DNA from: Angelvirus px29 | Lineage: Duplodnaviria; Heunggongvirae; Uroviricota; Caudoviricetes; Straboviridae | Virus record (IMG/VR): IMGVR_UViG_2700988902_000001 | Span: 75,520 to 139,519 of that record | Strand: one strand, 5' to 3' | DNA length: 64,000 bases | Shown: in pieces, positions 8,255 through 26,265 of the stretch | Position numbering within the stretch: the stretch's first letter is position 1 | Layout: each line of letters starts with the position of its first letter | Position numbers and translations under genes: made by a program | The notes under the pieces: generated by a model | Seen by the model: only the letters and a program-made list of their open reading frames with translations | Told to the model about the DNA's origin: nothing | Databases searched by the model: none

Positions 8255-8374
8255 TGGCGGGGAAGACGGGACTCGAACCCGCGACCAATAGTTTAATTTG
8301 CGTTGGCTTGCTGTAAAGAATCTTCTCAGATTCCGCTTTTTGCGTCTACTGCTCTACCACTGAGCTACTTCCCC
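8255..8374 (-). ncRNA. tRNA-like RNA with an expanded anticodon loop containing hairpin+TTTACAGCAA
   Basis: Acceptor GGGGAAG/CTTCCCC-G-CCA, canonical D and T arms, about 55 nt in place of the anticodon loop. Confidence 0.8.
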
Positions 8375-8390
8375 AAATTTTCACAACACT

Positions 8391-8509
8391 ATGCTGGCGG
8401 TGCCGGATTCGAACCGAGCGTTACAGGCTTAACAGGCGAGTATTTATTGCGGAAAACATTCTCGTCAGAATGAATTTTACAGTGTCCTACCACTAGACGA
8501 ACCGCCAGC
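8391..8509 (-). ncRNA. tRNA-Glu-like RNA with the anticodon arm replaced by hairpin+TTTTCCGCAA
   Basis: D region TTCGTCTAGTGG(..)TAGGACACTG resembles tRNA-Glu at 19375; T-loop TTCGAAT; terminal stem GCTGGCGG/CCGCCAGC. Confidence 0.75.
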
Positions 8510-8519
8510 ATAATGTTGT

Positions 8520-8648
8520 TTGTTGTCGCGATGTTGGATTCGAACCAACGACGTTTCTCGATGTGCCCACACTATAACGGATTCGAACCGTACTCGATAC
8601 TTCTTTGCGATCAAAGGTGTTCTCCCACTGAACTAATCGCGACAACAA
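8520..8648 (-). ncRNA. tRNA-like RNA with two T-arms
   Basis: 13-bp terminal stem, D-arm, hairpins ACGG-TTCGAAT-CCGT and GTTGG-TTCGAAT-CCAAC. Confidence 0.7.
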
Positions 8649-10849: not shown

Positions 10850-12292
10850 TTAGAAATCAATACCGACGTATCGGTCGCTCATGATCTTGTCAAGCATGAT
10901 TTGCATCGGGTTAAACTCTTTTGCACTCAGGATTGTCTCCATGATTGCAGGACTAAAACCAGATACCAACGCAGTGCCTTGATCGTCTTTGGTCACCGGA
11001 TTGTTAGTCGGGCGCGGGCAAAGATTCCAGAACACAAGTTTCGGCATTTCGTAACCAGCATCGCGGTAAGTCTGACGAATCACCTCAAAGTTGGTACGTT
11101 CGCGGTCACGCATACGATAGTATCCGCTATAACCGCCGTCTGCAACGTTGAATTCCATGTCAGACAATACAACCATCATAGACGGCATATCAGACTGCGG
11201 AACTCGATGTTTCACGGCACGATCAAGAATGATCTTGAATGCACCAGCGAAGTTGGTAGAACCACCCCACGGAGCGCGTCCCAGATGATTCACCATGCTT
11301 TGCAGATCGTCGCCTTTCGCTTTGATGTTGTAGAACTGAGGATTATCATCGAAGGTAATCACTTCGTTCTTGAACACACCACCAGAGCGTTCACCGATAT
11401 ACAGACCCAGAGAGATCGCGATATCCATAGCAGACAGACCAGCGACGGCAGTCGGGGTGCTCATAGAGCCAGAAACGTCAACCATTGCGATTACGTTTTC
11501 AGTAGAGCCAGCCATCCAGTCGCGTTGTGCTTTCCATTGTGCATCAGCAGCAACAGAAGAACCGGTACGCAATGATTTGATCATGTCATACGGGTACACA
11601 GCACCAGCGTTGATCTTAGCTTCGCCCTTTTTCAGAGACTCAAGATAAGCAACATAACGCTCATTCGCATTTTTCAGGAATGCTTTCTGATATCGGGCAG
11701 ATGCAACAGACGGCAGTTTACCGAAATCAATTCCATCCCACTGACGAGCACACATTTTTTGTTCAACGGTGTTCGACATACGGACGATTGTCTGACGATA
11801 CTCTTTAGCAGTCATACGCATAGCTTTGGCCAGAATACCAGCTTCTTTGCCTTTGCGAGGAGCCCACTTAGCAGCAAGACCGTTCTGTTTGATCAGAATC
11901 GCGTCCACCATGATAGCGACCGCAGCATCTTCGATTGGAGTACCAATCATTGAAACAACGTCCTTATAACGACCGATTTCCGGTGTGTTCATCAGAACGA
12001 CGGTAGCGTCAACTTGATGGCGATGTGCCAGCAGTTTCAGCAGACGAATGAACTGTTCACGCTCACCAGCACCACCGCGAATATCGCGAGCCCATTGCAG
12101 AATACGAACTGCCCAATCCGGAGATTCGGTGTAAGCTTCCACAAACATGGAACTCAGATCTTTACCGCGAGCGGAACCGATTTGAGAAAACAGATTCAGA
12201 CACTTATCACCAGTGGTATAGTTAGTAACTGCACCGTTCGCGGTACGTGCCAGTGCTTGCGCTTGAGTCATTGCATTCATAAAATTAGACAA
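10850..12292 (-). CDS. DUF2828-type protein with a C-terminal vWA domain (TROVE/Ro60-like architecture)
   Basis: N-terminal T.NGA, ARDIRGGAGER and KW.PR motifs; vWA MIDAS DVSGSM, GGSTNF, LSDMEF, LVFWNL, VSGFSP. Confidence 0.8.
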   Translation of the reverse strand: MSNFMNAMTQAQALARTANGAVTNYTTGDKCLNLFSQIGSARGKDLSSMFVEAYTESPDWAVRILQWARDIRGGAGEREQFIRLLKLLAHRHQVDATVVLMNTPEIGRYKDVVSMIGTPIEDAAVAIMVDAILIKQNGLAAKWAPRKGKEAGILAKAMRMTAKEYRQTIVRMSNTVEQKMCARQWDGIDFGKLPSVASARYQKAFLKNANERYVAYLESLKKGEAKINAGAVYPYDMIKSLRTGSSVAADAQWKAQRDWMAGSTENVIAMVDVSGSMSTPTAVAGLSAMDIAISLGLYIGERSGGVFKNEVITFDDNPQFYNIKAKGDDLQSMVNHLGRAPWGGSTNFAGAFKIILDRAVKHRVPQSDMPSMMVVLSDMEFNVADGGYSGYYRMRDRERTNFEVIRQTYRDAGYEMPKLVFWNLCPRPTNNPVTKDDQGTALVSGFSPAIMETILSAKEFNPMQIMLDKIMSDRYVGIDF

Positions 12293-18696: not shown

Positions 18697-18802
18697 AGGA
18701 CGCTAAGGTAGAGAATCGAACTCTACATGAAATCAATACCGACGGGGCAATCTATATCCCGACTTTCGAGAAGCTATCTCATTGCACTTAAAAGCATTAG
18801 CG
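18697..18802 (-). ncRNA. tRNA-like RNA lacking canonical D and anticodon arms
   Basis: CGCTAA/TTAGCG terminal stem and T-arm GTAGAG-TTCGATT-CTCTAC. Confidence 0.55.
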
Positions 18803-18827
18803 ATTTCACCTTTCAAAGCGATTAAAC

Positions 18828-18904
18828 TGGTGCATCGGACTGGACTTGAACCAGTGACCAGCGGATTTTCAATCCGCCACTCTACCATACTGAGTTACCG
18901 ATGC
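18828..18904 (-). tRNA. tRNA-Phe(GAA)
   Basis: Cloverleaf, CCA. Confidence 0.92.
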
Positions 18905-19862: not shown

Positions 19863-19936
19863 TGGTGGAGACGACGGGATTTCCGCCCGTATCTCAGATC
19901 CCAGTGACCTGCGATTATGAAGTTATCTACGTCCCC
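19863..19936 (-). ncRNA. tmRNA-TLD-like / Ala-accepting minimal RNA
   Basis: GGGGACG/CGTCTCC-A-CCA with G3:U70, no D stem, short closed helix, T-arm ACGGG/CCCGT. Confidence 0.6.
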
Positions 19937-21591: not shown

Positions 21592-21736
21592 GGATTCACA
21601 TACGGGAGTGGTGACTAACCCACGTTACTTTTACCTGCTGTTCCCTCTCAGCCGCACATCCAACTACCGAAGTAAAGGAGTGCTATCTTTTAATAGTAGA
21701 TTTGAAGTTTTGTATTGGTTGCAGAAGTGAATCCAT
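21592..21736 (-). ncRNA. Stem-CWGCAA small RNA (copy C)
   Basis: GGATTCAC-TTCTGCAACC ... GTGAATCC terminal stem. Confidence 0.6.
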
Positions 21737-21797
21737 GCATTTTCAAAGAACATTGAACTACTGTCGGGTAAGTTCATTTTTCCTACTAGGTAGAAAC

Positions 21798-21874
21798 TGG
21801 CAGTGACGACGGGGCTCGAACCCGCGCTCTCCGACGTGACAGGCCGGAATTTTAACCAACTAAACTACGTCACT
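21798..21874 (-). tRNA. tRNA-Asp(GTC)
   Basis: Cloverleaf, G73, CCA. Confidence 0.92.
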
Positions 21875-21880
21875 AGAAAC

Positions 21881-21955
21881 TGGTAGCCATGGGCAGGATT
21901 GAACTGCCGACCCCACCCTTATCAGGGGTGTGCTCTACCACTGAGCTACATGGCT
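21881..21955 (-). tRNA. tRNA-Ile(GAT)
   Basis: Cloverleaf, CCA. Confidence 0.92.
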
Positions 21956-21962
21956 ATAAACT

Positions 21963-22069
21963 GGAAGACTTTTAACTGCCACCTGGACTCTTGTGCTAGA
22001 GAGTTGAGGAATCGAACCTCACTGTTTTCTTGTTAATAGAAAAATTCGAATGGTTTGCTGAAATCTTCC
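21963..22069 (-). ncRNA. Stem-CAGCAA small RNA containing a tRNA T-arm (copy D)
   Basis: GGAAGATTT-CAGCAAACC ... GAGG-TTCGATT-CCTC ... AAAGTCTTCC. Confidence 0.68.
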
Positions 22070-22089
22070 GTAGCACGGTAAATTGTTAT

Positions 22090-22173
22090 TTGCGGAGACG
22101 GCTGGACTCGAACCAGCATAGAGTTAACCTCACGGATTAACAGTCCGTCGCTCAACCTTTGAGCCACGTCTCC
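22090..22173 (-). tRNA. tRNA-Asn(GTT) with an extended variable arm
   Basis: Loop CTGTTAA, G73, variable arm GAG-GTTAA-CTC. Confidence 0.85.
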
Positions 22174-22192
22174 CAAATAACAACTTGCAAAT

Positions 22193-22268
22193 AAGAAACA
22201 GAGTGAACTTTATAGGCTATTTCAAAATAATGGCTTTTTAAGTTGGTTGCTGAAATCACTCTTTATCT
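22193..22268 (-). ncRNA. Stem-CAGCAA small RNA (copy E)
   Basis: AGAGTGATTT-CAGCAACC ... TCACTCT; starts just after the promoter TTTACA..TATAGT. Confidence 0.65.
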
Positions 22269-22274
22269 TTGTTT

Positions 22275-22303
22275 ACTATACACTACTATTTAGTGATTGT
22301 AAA
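22275..22303 (-). promoter_or_regulatory. T4-type early promoter with a nested late motif
   Basis: TTTACA-17-TATAGT containing CTAAATA. Confidence 0.7.
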
Positions 22304-22332
22304 ACAAAGACTTCTTAAATCTTTACTCTAAC

Positions 22333-22387
22333 AGGCTCACTTTTGTTTTTCATCCGCAGAAAAGTTTTGATTGCTGAATGGAGCCTT
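22333..22387 (-). ncRNA. Stem-CAGCAA small RNA (copy F)
   Basis: AGGCTCCATT-CAGCAATC ... GTGAGCCT; starts just after the promoter GTTTACA..TACAAT. Confidence 0.65.
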
Positions 22388-22393
22388 ATAAAG

Positions 22394-22423
22394 ATTGTAT
22401 CACGGTTTATCAACGCTGTAAAC
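22394..22423 (-). promoter_or_regulatory. T4-type early promoter
   Basis: GTTTACA-17-TACAAT. Confidence 0.75.
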
Positions 22424-22460
22424 TATCTTTTATTTATGCTCTACTTTAAGAGCATGTGAT

Positions 22461-22491
22461 AATGATAGCACAGTGTTTTAATAGAGTAAAC
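22461..22491 (-). promoter_or_regulatory. T4-type early promoter
   Basis: GTTTACT-17-TATCAT. Confidence 0.65.
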
Positions 22492-22524
22492 AATCTTTTT
22501 CTCGATATCCCCACATTGTTTCAT

Positions 22525-22745
22525 GCTACTGCCGGTTGAGTCCGAAGACCGAATAAGGGTTCACTTCCACGTTAGGTTTACGGCATACCGAGAAAAAGAC
22601 AGTCCGCATCACAGTGTTAGCGCAAGGGGTTCCACTGTCACTAAGTTATTTAGTGTCTACTGTCAACCAGCTAGGTGGGCGCTGGTCCCGTCCATACGAG
22701 CATGATGCCACCAATACATGCTCGGAAAGATCTTACGGTTTCTCG
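22525..22745 (-). ncRNA. Candidate structured ncRNA (~220 nt)
   Basis: GC-richer intergenic tract with several hairpins (e.g. GAGCATG/CATGCTC) and no convincing ORF. Confidence 0.35.
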
Positions 22746-22758
22746 AATCTCGAAATCT

Positions 22759-22983
22759 TTACTTGTCGTAATAATATGGCTTGCATTGACCTTCGAACTT
22801 GGTTTGACCACCGAAGAATCCAACGCGATTCTCGCCATATGTATCTTGTGCATTTTCTTCCGCGACTTTCAGCGCGGCTCTGCACTCTGCTTCGGTGTCG
22901 AACTTCTCAATTGCATGACTATGTGAGCCATAATTGGTACCAAAGTTAACGAACAACGAAGTAATCAACAAGAACTTAATCAT
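22759..22983 (-). CDS. Small exported/membrane protein
   Basis: Hydrophobic N-terminus; late promoter CTAAATA at ~22994. Confidence 0.6.
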   Translation of the reverse strand: MIKFLLITSLFVNFGTNYGSHSHAIEKFDTEAECRAALKVAEENAQDTYGENRVGFFGGQTKFEGQCKPYYYDK

Positions 22984-25639: not shown

Positions 25640-25742
25640 TTGTCGAGGCGACTGGATTCGAACCAGCGACCGAGTGCTTCTTATGTGCTCTCGTAAAAGT
25701 TCATAAGAAGGCACTTGCTCTATCCGTCTGAGCTACGCCCCG
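25640..25742 (-). tRNA. tRNA-Arg(TCT) with a 26-nt insertion (25680-25705) after U36
   Basis: Removing the insert gives AGTGC-CTTCTAA-GCACT; Arg-type D-loop GGATA. Confidence 0.8.
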
Positions 25743-25767: not shown

Positions 25768-26265
25768 TCAAGGACTCCAGTCAAAATTTAAATCTTCTGT
25801 ATACTCTTCAAGTATACGCAAGTTGTAATCGATTGTAAACGACTTTGGCAAAACAAAATCAGGGCCAACATCATAACTAGCGGTAATGTGTGGATGATAA
25901 TCAGGATAATCATGAGTTGCCCCATGTTTCTCTCTGATCTCTTTGTGTCTAGCGCCAAACCAAGGGTCTGTGAGCTTTAGCACAAGAGCACGTTTGCCGC
26001 TTTGTGTTTCGAAGATATCAGGAATCATGACACCTTGCAACGTTTTTTCCATAGTACCATACGCTTTGAAATCAGGCAAGTATTTTCTGGAGTAAACCAA
26101 CGTGGTGTGCATCTTATCATAGGGTACCAGATTAGGGATACCCATTTCGCGACATCTTCTAACAATAGCCATAGCAGTGCGAGGCTTGTAACGAACTGCT
26201 ACATAAGTGCCTCGCGTTTCTTTTTGCTCCGTCGTCTCAGTGAATTCTGAAAACGACAGCATCAT
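25768..26265 (-). CDS. 57B: gp57B 2H phosphoesterase (Acb1 anti-CBASS homolog)
   Basis: Two HxT motifs (MHTTL, HITA); T4 synteny 57B-57A-1-3. Confidence 0.85.
   Translation of the reverse strand: MMLSFSEFTETTEQKETRGTYVAVRYKPRTAMAIVRRCREMGIPNLVPYDKMHTTLVYSRKYLPDFKAYGTMEKTLQGVMIPDIFETQSGKRALVLKLTDPWFGARHKEIREKHGATHDYPDYHPHITASYDVGPDFVLPKSFTIDYNLRILEEYTEDLNFDWSP

What the first reader, a model, noticed from the sequence alone, without database searches (positions are those of the whole stretch)
21592..22387. Family of phage small RNAs: terminal stem followed by TT(T)C(A/T)GCAA
Four intergenic minus-strand units share one design: 5' stem strand, then TT(T)CWGCAA, a variable middle, and the complementary 3' strand, usually after an A-rich run. 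C is GGATTCAC/GTGAATCC (21592-21736), D is GGAAGATTT/AAAGTCTTCC (21963-22069), E is AGAGTGA/TCACTCT (22193-22268) and F is AGGCTC/GAGCCT (22333-22387). The stem sequences all differ while pairing and the motif are kept, which is the signature of a structured RNA family. E and F each start just downstream of their own early promoter. D carries a full tRNA T-arm (GAGG-TTCGATT-CCTC). Stem plus protein-binding motif plus optional tRNA-like module parallels bacterial Y RNAs (established), but this motif is not the Ro60 site I know. Inference: an undescribed Y-RNA-like family that tethers or titrates one protein.
Basis: partly seen in the sequence, partly recalled or inferred. Interest (0 to 1): 0.88.

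Follow-up and report, generated by a model that had tools for sequence, protein, structure and literature searches.

The report
Phage Y-like RNAs with CAGCAA handle
Four small folded RNAs hidden among the tRNA genes of a T4-like Aeromonas phage share one conserved "handle"; the same RNA family sits beside a Ro60-shaped protein gene in very different phages, so they are probably that protein's undescribed partner RNAs, and the handle looks strikingly like the unexplained "Class I" RNAs of social amoebae.

Summary
Units C, D, E and F lie at the stated coordinates on the minus strand of the tRNA operon of a T4-like Aeromonas phage. Each has a closing helix followed at once by TTCWGCAA. Four motif copies in 800 nt compare with about 0.08 expected. 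The helices covary in five related phages.

The family reaches far beyond this phage. A covariance model built from E and F, then widened, finds the same handle in Felix-O1-like, Klebsiella, Vibrio, Campylobacter, Listeria, Bacillus and mycobacterial phages. There its best hits lie beside, and on the strand of, a DUF2828 gene. Six tRNA-rich phages without DUF2828 have no hit.

This phage's own DUF2828 protein (window 10850-12292) is predicted to fold as a full-length Ro60 ring plus vWA domain.

The best reading is Y-RNA-like partners of a Ro60 paralogue. Binding itself is untested. Rfam has no family for these RNAs. Its closest model is Dictyostelium Class I RNA (below threshold), which shares the AAG start, 6-bp stem, UUACAGCAA motif and CUGU end.

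This scan has already noted the same RNA-protein pairing on other DNA (at least 256 genomes). I found no published description. One preprint only guesses that some tRNA genes beside such a gene are Y RNAs.

The parts
22333..22387 (-). Unit F, 55 nt. It reads AAG, then 6-bp closing helix (AGGCTC 22386-22381 with GAGCCT 22338-22333), CA, UUCAGCAA (22378-22371), a 5-bp hairpin with 7-nt loop UGCGGAU, and AAAAGU. The tail is GUU, so the 3' end reads CUGU. It begins about 7 nt after the -10 box, so its 5' end is probably the transcript start.
   Evidence: R1 69.6 bits, R2 65.2 bits; RF01414 18.1 bits. Hairpin covaries UUUUC/GAAAA to UUUCU/AGAAA in phiWae14 and phiAS5.
22197..22265 (-). Unit E, core 22200-22262. 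It reads AAG, then closing helix AGAGTGA/TCACTCT, U, UUCAGCAA (22254-22247), CCAAC, an A/U-rich hairpin, UAAAGU, the 3' strand, and a GUU tail. It lies a few nt downstream of its own promoter's expected start.
   Evidence: Two compensatory pairs separate this phage (AGAGTGA/TCACTCT) from all five relatives (GGAATGA/TCATTCC). R1 75.4 bits, R2 72.5 bits.
21963..22070 (-). Unit D, 108 nt, between tRNA-Asn and tRNA-Ile. It has the same handle: GGAAGA/TCTTCC, UUUCAGCAA at 22063-22055, AAAAG before the 3' strand, and tail AGU. Its insert holds a UUUUCU/AGAAAA hairpin, a canonical T-arm (22005-22021) and a further 5-bp hairpin. It ends 7 nt before tRNA-Ile.
   Evidence: Closing helix has 2 compensatory pairs. 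The T-stem has one compensatory pair and one change to G-U; the last hairpin has one compensatory pair but three broken pairs in phiAS5.
21592..21734 (-). Unit C, 143 nt, between tRNA-Asp and tRNA-Ala. It has an 8-bp closing helix GGATTCAC/GTGAATCC, the variant motif UUCUGCAA (21726-21719), then CCAA and four internal hairpins. It is a divergent or doubtful member: no AAG start, no AAAAG run, no CUGU end.
   Evidence: The stem is invariant in 4 phages. One internal hairpin covaries (U-A to C-G). Models R1 and R2 score it only weakly (12-13 bits).
22394..22422 (-). Early-type sigma-70 promoter in front of F (TTTACA, 17 nt, TACAAT with TG).
   Evidence: conserved in relatives
22275..22303 (-). 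Early-type sigma-70 promoter in front of E (TTTACA, 17 nt, TATAGT).
   Evidence: conserved in relatives
10850..12292 (-). DUF2828 + DUF7788/vWA gene (480 aa, MIDAS DxSxS invariant). It is a predicted Ro60-like ring protein and the proposed protein partner. It lies on the same strand as the RNAs, about 9.3 kb from unit C.
8255..8509 (-). Two tRNA-shaped bodies (8374-8255 and 8509-8391). Each carries the same handle in circularly permuted form at the anticodon position: A-run, a hairpin closed by a tetraloop, then UUUACAGCAA or UUUUCCGCAA.

Best explanation
C, D, E and F are paralogous small non-coding RNAs of a widespread phage family. I read them as the Y-RNA-like partners of the phage's Ro60-like DUF2828 protein.

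**Shown here**
- They lie in the early-transcribed tRNA operon. F and E sit at the 5' ends of transcripts from two tandem promoters. D and C sit between tRNAs.
- They share a handle: start AAG; a 6-9 bp closing helix whose second pair is an invariant G-C; then single-stranded UU(U/A)CAGCAA(Y)CAA on the 5' side and AAAAG(U) on the 3' side; tail (C)UGU or AGU.
- The handle is conserved from Aeromonas to Listeria and mycobacterial phages, while the helix sequence drifts by compensatory change.
- The family co-occurs and co-localises with DUF2828 genes.
- The DUF2828 protein is predicted to have the Ro60 ring plus vWA fold.

**Inferred**
- The units are released by the tRNA-processing enzymes (RNase P at the next tRNA, RNase E, 3' trimming).
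- The handle is the docking site of the ring protein, as the terminal helix of a Y RNA is for Ro60.
- The variable inserts are the working ends. They include a hairpin with a 7-nt loop, a T-arm, or a whole tRNA body in copies A and B. They would present tRNA-like parts to enzymes, or gate the ring.

**Speculative**
- The particle serves counter-defence or RNA quality control during infection.
For: 1. Family and structure. On the alignment of 12 units from three lineages, 100% of cells pair, 5 of 6 pairs have compensatory changes, and one G-C pair is invariant.
2. Cross-lineage detection. R1 was built from Aeromonas phages only, yet it finds Sf14 and IMG/VR contig L031 units at E 3e-4 to 2e-2.
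3. Co-localisation, same strand. The distance given is from the DUF2828 gene.
   - Sf14: 335 nt downstream.
   - KP2025: 116 nt downstream.
   - P100: 193 nt upstream.
   - PC14: 19 nt upstream.
   - Tsamsa: 90 nt upstream.
   - Wilder: 38 nt downstream.
   - L031: its DUF2828 homologue lies at the head of the array.
   - ValKK3 and this phage: about 9 kb away.

4. Presence and absence.
   - All eight DUF2828-bearing genomes tested (this phage, ValKK3, KP2025, P100, PC14, Tsamsa, Sf14, Wilder) carry the RNA; Wilder only with filters off, at 19.5 bits, E 0.1.
   - Contig L031 also carries both the gene and the RNAs.
   - Aeh1 has strong RNA hits, but its DUF2828 gene was not located here.
   - None of six DUF2828-free, tRNA-rich phages has a hit below E 0.4. 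The absence of PF11443 was tested for five of them, not for T4.

5. Protein fold. The model has pLDDT 88.5. The top 13 PDB hits are all Ro60/TROVE structures, aligned over the full length (E 3e-9 to 6e-6, TM 0.37-0.62). The top Swiss-Prot hits are Ro60 of Deinococcus, mouse, human, frog and worm.
6. Operator-like case. In ValKK3 a weakly scoring handle (14 bits, E 1.5), read by eye, encloses the Shine-Dalgarno sequence and AUG of the DUF2828 gene itself. That arrangement is expected if the protein binds the handle.
7. Precedent. Canonical Ro60 genes in bacteria and phages have Y RNAs within 4 kb on the same strand (PMC4201824). phiLo Ro60 binds two upstream Y-like RNAs (PMC12135203).
Against: - No binding data and no clear evidence of discrete transcripts. 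The only RNA-library evidence is one 231-nt metatranscriptome contig over 22271-22501, which could be DNA carry-over.
- In this phage the gene and the RNAs are about 9 kb apart, in different transcription units.
- DUF2828 genes and these RNAs both favour tRNA clusters. Part of the co-localisation could therefore be indirect, although the DUF2828-free controls argue against that.
- Bas63 gp130 is described as Ro60-like and directly upstream of the tRNA genes, as the DUF2828 genes of other Felix-O1-like phages are; I did not check its sequence. It counters the Ppl defence when expressed alone from a plasmid or from T7, which lacks such RNAs (10.1101/2024.10.10.617714). The RNAs are therefore not needed for that activity.
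- The handle has none of the sequence features of known Ro60 sites.
- Unit C fits the handle poorly.
Confidence: 0.65

Rival explanations
1. The RNAs are a real trans-acting family, but their handle is read by some other factor. Candidates are a host or phage tRNA-processing or modification enzyme, or an RRM-type protein like the Dictyostelium Class I binder Rnp1A/CIBP. On this reading the DUF2828 protein is only a frequent neighbour in an RNA-metabolism gene neighbourhood.
For: - In Dictyostelium the one protein shown to bind a Class I RNA directly is an RRM protein (PMC7919456).
- gp130 works without phage RNAs in T7.
- In this phage and in ValKK3 the strong RNA copies are about 9 kb from the gene.
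Against: - The presence and absence of the RNA track DUF2828, not tRNA clusters.
- In five lineages the RNAs directly abut the gene on its strand.
- In ValKK3 the handle wraps the gene's own start site.
Confidence: 0.15
2. The units are cis-acting parts of the tRNA operon and are not stable RNAs with a job of their own. They would be leader and spacer structures that guide processing, protect 5' ends, or insulate neighbouring tRNAs while they fold.
For: - All four lie inside one tRNA transcription unit. F and E are 5' leaders, and D ends 7 nt before tRNA-Ile.
- T4 makes spacer-derived stable RNAs C and D whose role is still unknown.
Against: - In Listeria P100 three units stand in tandem behind their own promoter, with no tRNA on that strand.
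- A sequence motif conserved from proteobacterial to actinobacterial phages is not what a generic processing spacer needs.
- tRNA operons of six other phages do without it.
Confidence: 0.12
3. The units are decayed tRNA genes (pseudo-tRNAs) whose resemblance to one another is inherited junk.
For: - D has a T-arm.
- The Sf14 long unit scores 30 bits on the tRNA model.
- tRNAscan-SE predicted three pseudo-tRNAs in Aeh1 (PMC1524935).
Against: - E and F have no tRNA parts at all.
- The helices are kept by compensatory change.
- The handle is conserved across phage families that share no other DNA similarity in these spacers.
Confidence: 0.03

Closest known systems
Ro60 (Rsr/TROVE) with Y RNAs: bacterial and phage YrlA/YrlB (Rfam RF02553; Chen et al. 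2014, PMC4201824) and Thermus phage phiLo Ro60 with Yrl1/Yrl2 (PMC12135203)
   Same: - A ring-plus-vWA protein of the Ro60 fold.
- Small RNAs encoded next to it on the same strand.
- RNAs closed by a helix of their 5' and 3' ends, with a conserved site beside it.
- Several paralogous RNAs per genome.
- Some RNAs carry tRNA-like modules: a T-arm in D, and a T-arm followed by a hairpin and a D-arm-like loop in the Sf14 long unit.
   Different: - The protein is Pfam DUF2828/DUF7788, not TROVE. It has about 13-18% identity to Ro60 and no significant sequence hit.
- The RNA site is UU(U/A)CAGCAA plus AAAAG, not the CGAA-type motif.
- RF02553 does not hit any unit.
- Most units are only 55-70 nt, with no tRNA-like domain.
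- Binding has not been shown.
Dictyostelid Class I RNAs (Rfam RF01414; Kjellin et al. 2021, PMC7919456)
   Same: - About 60 nt long.
- Start AAG with an invariant G that pairs with the C of a 3' CUGU end.
- A 6-bp terminal stem kept by compensatory changes.
- A conserved motif directly after the 5' strand. The Rfam consensus is CCUUACAGCAA; the phages have UUUACAGCAA or UUUCAGCAA.
- An A-run before the 3' strand, and a variable middle.
- Many paralogues, often in clusters.
- RF01414 aligns full-length to three Sf14 units (21-23 bits) and to F (18 bits).
   Different: - All scores are below the gathering threshold (41.5 bits).
- The hosts are amoebae, with their own DUSE promoter.
- The family is reported as unique to Dictyostelia.
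- The only shown direct binder is an RRM protein.
- Whether dictyostelids encode DUF2828 proteins could not be checked here, so homology versus convergence stays open.
T4 RNA C and RNA D (species 1 and 2 stable RNAs in the T4 tRNA cluster)
   Same: Small non-tRNA RNAs encoded inside the tRNA operon of a T4-type phage. RNA C has a T-arm and paired ends. Function unknown.
   Different: They have no CAGCAA motif, and no R1 or R2 hit below E 1 anywhere in T4. T4 was not returned as a DUF2828 match here; this was not tested directly.
Bas63 gp130, a Ro60-like counter of the Ppl defence (PhageMaP preprint 10.1101/2024.10.10.617714)
   Same: It is a Felix-O1-type gene directly upstream of the tRNA array, with structural similarity to Ro60. 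The authors guess that some neighbouring 'tRNA' genes are Y RNAs.
   Different: No RNA family, motif or structure is described there. The protein acts without phage RNAs in T7. I inferred that gp130 corresponds to the DUF2828 family from the preprint's description alone; I did not align them.

Membership tests
Y RNA / YrlA (RF02553) | Encoded close to a Ro60 gene, on the same strand | tested here: inconclusive
   The RNAs are on the same strand as a Ro60-fold paralogue (DUF2828). They are about 9 kb away in this phage and 19-335 nt away in six other lineages. The protein is not a TROVE-family Ro60 by sequence.
Y RNA / YrlA (RF02553) | Terminal helix carrying the conserved Ro60 site (GNCGAAN0-1G in YrlA; CGAA in phiLo Yrl) | tested here: not met
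   The terminal helix is present. The conserved site is UU(U/A)CAGCAA plus AAAAG. UCGAA occurs in D of this phage and Ah1 only, and is lost in Aeh1 and phiAS5.
Y RNA / YrlA (RF02553) | tRNA-like domain (T-arm and D-arm mimic) | tested here: inconclusive
   D has a canonical T-arm. E and F have none, and C has none recognisable.
Y RNA / YrlA (RF02553) | Match to the Rfam covariance model | tested here: not met
   RF02553 hits only pairs of adjacent tRNAs at 22-33 bits (gathering score 69). It hits none of the units.
Y RNA / YrlA (RF02553) | Physical binding to the Ro60-type protein | not testable with these tools
   The complex predictor offered takes proteins only. This needs a gel shift, RIP or CLIP.
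Dictyostelium Class I RNA (RF01414) | Short (6 bp) stem joining the 5' and 3' ends, kept by compensatory changes | tested here: met
   100% paired, 4-5 of 6 pairs compensatory
Dictyostelium Class I RNA (RF01414) | 11-nt motif next to the 5' strand with U3, C6, C9, A10 and A11 nearly invariant | tested here: met
   E and D have 5 of 5; F and C have 4 of 5. Sf14, P100, KP2025, PC14 and Tsamsa units carry U(U/A)ACAGCAA or AUACAGCAA.
Dictyostelium Class I RNA (RF01414) | Start AAG and end CUGU, with the G pairing that C | tested here: met
   Met in E and F, and in most units of other phages, where the G-C pair is invariant. D ends CCAGU. C does not conform.
Dictyostelium Class I RNA (RF01414) | Score at or above Rfam's gathering threshold (41.5 bits) | tested here: not met
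   F scores 18.1 bits; Sf14 units score 21.2-23.4 bits.
Dictyostelium Class I RNA (RF01414) | DUSE promoter about 60 nt upstream; dictyostelid host | tested here: not met
   Bacterial sigma-70-type promoters or tRNA-operon context instead, in a phage genome.
Ro60 / TROVE protein family (for the DUF2828 partner) | HEAT-like helical ring followed by a vWA domain with MIDAS | tested here: met
   Predicted model with pLDDT 88.5. Full-length Foldseek matches to 1yvr, 2i91, 9kop, 9l5y and 2nvo. DxSxS is invariant in 54 homologues. This rests on a prediction, not a solved structure.
Ro60 / TROVE protein family (for the DUF2828 partner) | Match to Pfam TROVE (PF05731) or significant sequence similarity to Ro60 | tested here: not met
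   Pfam gives DUF2828, DUF7788 and VWA_2 only. The best PDB sequence hit to a TROVE protein has E 0.84.

The most novel reading that the evidence does not exclude
The phage CAGCAA-handle RNAs and the dictyostelid Class I RNAs would be one ancient RNA family, whose conserved handle is the docking site of DUF2828-type Ro60 paralogues. These proteins occur in phages, giant viruses and many eukaryotes. If so, Class I RNAs would not be an amoeba invention tied to multicellularity. They would be the Y RNAs of a second, so far unrecognised branch of Ro-type ribonucleoproteins, shared or exchanged between viruses and eukaryotes.
Probability: 0.2. Interest if true: 0.92.

Novelty: new variant of a known kind. 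Interest (0 to 1): 0.8.

Why it matters
Several open questions would become testable.

- **DUF2828.** It is one of the commoner unexplained phage proteins: 689 phage records and more than 7000 protein clusters in the searches here. Apart from one preprint that links a Felix-O1-type Ro60-like protein to escape from the Ppl defence, it has no known mechanism. A defined RNA partner with a recognisable handle gives a direct experimental handle on it.
- **Ro60/Y-RNA biology.** The Ro60/Y-RNA principle would extend to a second protein family with a different RNA code.
- **Unannotated spacers and mis-called tRNAs.** It would explain unannotated "spacers", "pseudo-tRNAs" and odd "tRNAs" in the tRNA clusters of many therapeutic and model phages (Felix O1, P100, KVP40-like).
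- **T4-type cluster RNAs.** It bears on the 50-year-old puzzle of non-tRNA stable RNAs in T4-type tRNA clusters.
- **Class I RNAs.** If the likeness to Class I RNAs reflects homology, it offers the first mechanistic lead for an abundant orphan RNA class of Dictyostelium.

Tried and rejected
- **Window taken for a T5-like phage.** This was my first guess and it was wrong. The window is a T4-like Aeromonas phage, 93% identical to Ah1.
- **Homology to T4 RNA C/D.** T4's RNAs have no motif and no model hit.
- **Other readings of the motif.** I considered a K-turn (box C/D-like), loop E, a boxA (NusB/E) site, a MotA box on the other strand, a CsrA site in the hairpin loop, and an RNA anti-CRISPR repeat. 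None fits the conserved positions. These were judged by eye and from memory only.
- **RNA evidence from public runs.**
  - Only assembled contigs were available.
  - Most depth over the region comes from other organisms' tRNAs.
  - One 231-nt metatranscriptome contig covers 22271-22501.
  - No conclusion on expression or ends is possible.
- **Single-sequence structure prediction of the DUF2828 protein.** It failed (pLDDT 35.6). The MSA-based run was used instead.
- **Exact-word scans of IMG/VR for F- and E-type words.** Most returns were chance matches. Only L031 proved to be a family-bearing contig.
- **MAFFT alignment of units from three lineages.** It mis-registered the 3' strands, so the model-guided alignment A4 was used.
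- **Models R1 and R2 on long units.** They miss or under-score units with long inserts (C, D) and the permuted copies A and B, so copy counts from them are lower bounds.
- **Does Dictyostelium encode DUF2828? Is the Class I pull-down protein DDB_G0281243 one?** I could not determine either. AFDB cluster hits came without organism names, and the paper search returned nothing.
Full report
**Where the window comes from.** The window belongs to a T4-like Aeromonas phage. The region is 93% identical to phage Ah1 and 85-87% identical to Aeh1 and avDM12. Earlier notes of this scan name the genome PX29; I did not check that. The finding lies in a minus-strand tRNA operon. ARAGORN finds 23 tRNA genes in the window, and the four units lie around tRNA-Asn, Ile, Asp and Ala.

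**The observation.**
- Each has a 5' strand, then TTCWGCAA after 0-2 nt, a variable middle, and the complementary 3' strand.
- The motif occurs 47 times on both strands of the 222-kb genome. Four copies on one strand within 800 nt compare with about 0.08 expected.
- A 6-bp complement alone proves little. About 30% of the other motif copies in the genome (11 of 43) can also find one within 160 nt.

**Covariation.** The homologous units of Ah1, avDM12, Aeh1, phiWae14 and phiAS5 keep the motif while the helices change in a compensatory way.
- F changes C-G to G-C.
- E differs from all relatives at two pairs.
- D changes G-C to A-U in Aeh1 and G-C to C-G in phiAS5.
- On the E+F alignment every cell pairs, and 4 of 6 pairs show double changes. 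Sliding the register drops pairing to 25-49%.
- Inner hairpins covary too: F's UUUUC/GAAAA becomes UUUCU/AGAAA. D's T-stem has one compensatory pair and one change to G-U; its last hairpin has one compensatory pair but three broken pairs in phiAS5. One hairpin of C also covaries.

**E and F are paralogues.** MAFFT aligns them end to end.

- Promoters of the T4 early type precede F and E.
- D has a canonical 5-bp, 7-nt T-arm at 22005-22021.
- C is the odd one. Its motif is UUCUGCAA, it has no AAG, AAAAG or CUGU, and its stem does not vary among the four phages that have it.

**What is already known nearby.**
- Rfam gives only tRNAs at threshold. The YrlA model hits nothing but adjacent tRNA pairs.
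- T4 has two stable RNAs of unknown role in its tRNA cluster, RNA C and RNA D. They lack the motif and are not found by my models.

**The family is much wider.**
- Model R1, built from E and F of the Aeromonas phages alone, found a unit in IMG/VR contig L031. That contig was fetched by a word scan.
- L031 is a Felix-O1-like phage with 22 tRNAs. It has four units with new helices (AGAGCAC/GTGCTCT, AGAGCAGT/ACTGCTCT, AGGACAC/GTGTCCT, AGAAG/CTTCT). One of them carries a T-arm.
- Shigella phage Sf14 has four more, with the motif variant U(U/A)ACAGCAA. One of these also carries a T-arm, followed by a hairpin and a D-arm-like loop.
- With filters off, R1 reaches these units at E 3e-4 to 2e-2.
- The model-guided alignment of 12 units from three lineages is 100% paired. 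It has 5 of 6 compensatory pairs and one invariant G-C. It gave model R2.

**The protein link.**
- In Sf14 the gene just upstream of the array is annotated as a DUF2828 RNA-binding protein.
- The window encodes a DUF2828 + DUF7788/vWA protein at 10850-12292, on the same strand.
- tblastn finds this protein in 689 phage records of many families. In mycobacteriophages it is annotated "Ro-like RNA binding protein".
- With an alignment of 54 homologues the protein folds with pLDDT 88.5.
- The model's best 13 PDB matches are all Ro60/TROVE structures, aligned over the full length: frog Ro, Deinococcus Rsr, human Ro60 and Thermus phage phiLo Ro60. E runs from 3e-9 to 6e-6 and TM from 0.37 to 0.62.
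- The best Swiss-Prot models are Ro60 of five species.
- By sequence the protein is not a TROVE family member.

**Co-occurrence test.** R2 was run over whole genomes.

| Phage | Best R2 hits relative to the DUF2828 gene (same strand) |
|---|---|
| Klebsiella KP2025 | 116 nt downstream |
| Listeria P100 | 193 nt upstream; three tandem units behind their own promoter |
| Campylobacter PC14 | 19 nt upstream |
| Bacillus Tsamsa | 90 nt upstream |
| Sf14 | 335 nt downstream |
| Mycobacteriophage Wilder | 38 nt downstream (filters off only; 19.5 bits, E 0.1) |
| Vibrio ValKK3 | about 9 kb upstream |
| This phage | about 9 kb away |

- Aeh1 has strong hits at the homologues of E and F; its DUF2828 gene was not located here.
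- L031 also encodes a DUF2828 homologue at the head of its array.
- The units read by eye have the same design throughout. P100 has AGGAAUC-UAACAGCAA...GAUUCCUGU. Wilder has GGACGC-UAACAGCAA...GCGUCCAGUA, with the same UGCGGAU hairpin loop as unit F.
- Six tRNA-rich phages used as DUF2828-free controls (T4, T5, Aeromonas AP1, avDM6 and 65.2, Serratia 4S) have no hit below E 0.4. PF11443 was searched for and not found in five of them; it was not searched in T4.
- In ValKK3, a further weakly scoring handle (14 bits, E 1.5), read by eye, encloses the Shine-Dalgarno sequence and start codon of the DUF2828 gene itself. It looks like a translational operator.

**Likeness to Dictyostelium Class I RNAs.**
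- On the Sf14 and window regions the only non-tRNA Rfam model that aligns full-length, on the right strand, to several units is RF01414, Dictyostelium Class I RNA. It scores 23.4, 22.7 and 21.2 bits on Sf14 units and 18.1 bits on F. The gathering score is 41.5.
- The published description (PMC7919456) lists these features: about 60 nt; start AAG; a 6-bp terminal stem with many compensatory changes; an 11-nt motif beside the 5' strand with U3, C6, C9, A10 and A11 nearly invariant; and end CUGU, whose C pairs with the invariant 5' G.
- E and F meet every one of these sequence features, and so do most units in the other phages.
- The family is reported as unique to Dictyostelia, and its function is unknown. 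One RRM protein binds it directly. One further pull-down protein, DDB_G0281243, is uncharacterised.
- No paper in the library links Class I RNAs to Ro60.
- I could not find out whether dictyostelids have DUF2828 proteins. Homology and convergence both remain open.

**What is published on the protein.**
- Canonical Ro60 genes of bacteria and some phages have YrlA-type Y RNAs within 4 kb on the same strand (PMC4201824).
- phiLo Ro60 binds two upstream Y-like RNAs (PMC12135203).
- A 2024 preprint shows that Bas63 gp130 counters the Ppl defence. gp130 is a Ro60-like protein directly upstream of that phage's tRNA genes. It also counters Ppl when moved alone into T7. The authors guess that some of the neighbouring tRNA genes may be Y RNAs (10.1101/2024.10.10.617714).
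- None of these papers describes the CAGCAA handle.
- The preprint's T7 result argues that the RNAs are not required for that activity.

**Most likely mechanism.**
- Shown here: an early-transcribed operon with F and E as 5' leaders and D and C as inter-tRNA units; a conserved, covarying handle; association with a Ro60-fold gene across distant phages.
- Inferred: the units are cut out by the tRNA-processing machinery (D ends 7 nt before tRNA-Ile). The handle docks the ring protein. The variable inserts present tRNA-like parts or gate the ring. These inserts are a 7-nt-loop hairpin, a T-arm, or, in the two permuted copies at 8255-8509, a whole tRNA body.
- Speculative: the role is counter-defence or RNA surveillance.
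- I put about 0.65 on the partner-RNA reading, 0.15 on another binder, 0.12 on purely cis-acting operon elements, and 0.03 on dead tRNAs.

**Expression.** Public runs gave only contigs. One metatranscriptome contig covers 22271-22501, and most other depth comes from foreign tRNAs. Nothing can be concluded.

**Standing within this scan.** Earlier notes show that the same RNA-protein pairing has been reported on other DNA many times: 341 notes in at least 256 genomes. Those are not independent evidence. Two earlier notes gave me leads that I then checked: the permuted copies A and B, and the PhageMaP preprint.

**Verdict.** It is a new variant of a known kind (a Ro-type ribonucleoprotein with a different protein family and a different RNA code), with an open and potentially far-reaching link to Class I RNAs.

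Noticed in passing
window 8524-8642 (-): ARAGORN calls tRNA-Ala(cgc) at 8568-8642. The matching 3' acceptor strand (TCGCGAC) lies about 40 nt further on, after a second T-arm. The RNA therefore looks like a tRNA body with an inserted extra T-arm module.
   Followed up: no
window 22440-22760 (-): About 300 nt of non-coding, GC-richer sequence lies between a 74-aa ORF and the first tRNA-operon promoter. BLAST matches from phiWae14 and phiAS5 (about 76% identity) extend across this stretch, and it is full of potential hairpins. No Rfam match.
   Followed up: no
window 19867-19935 (-): tRNA-like element with a 7-bp acceptor-type helix, a T-arm-like hairpin and a 3' CCA. Neither ARAGORN nor the Rfam tRNA model calls it.
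   Followed up: no
window 18700-18830 (-): Spacer between tRNA-Phe and tRNA-Pro with a stand-alone T-arm (GTAGAGTTCGATTCTCTAC) but no CAGCAA motif.
   Followed up: no
window 25643-25742 (-): The Rfam tRNA model matches a 100-nt stretch at 52 bits that ARAGORN misses. This suggests a tRNA with an insert.
   Followed up: no
window 25768-26265 (-): Homologue of the anti-CBASS nuclease Acb1 (Pfam PF23474, E 9e-36). It sits just upstream of the tRNA region, at the place of T4 57B.
   Followed up: partly
L040 7534-7604 (Mycobacterium phage Wilder): The gene annotated tRNA-Asn right after the Ro-like gene contains CCUACAGCAA where a D-arm should be. It is probably a handle-bearing tRNA mimic rather than a tRNA.
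   Followed up: partly
L038 7680-7960 (Klebsiella phage KP2025): Two further T-arm-bearing elements with UUUUCAGCAA in the D-arm position lie between the clear units and the next tRNAs.
   Followed up: no
L039 8780-12564 (Listeria phage P100): The DUF2828 gene is followed within a few kb by genes annotated as a tRNA splicing ligase, a tRNA amidotransferase and an RNA ligase. In Wilder a band-7-like gene precedes the Ro-like gene. Both are RNA-repair-type neighbourhoods.
   Followed up: no
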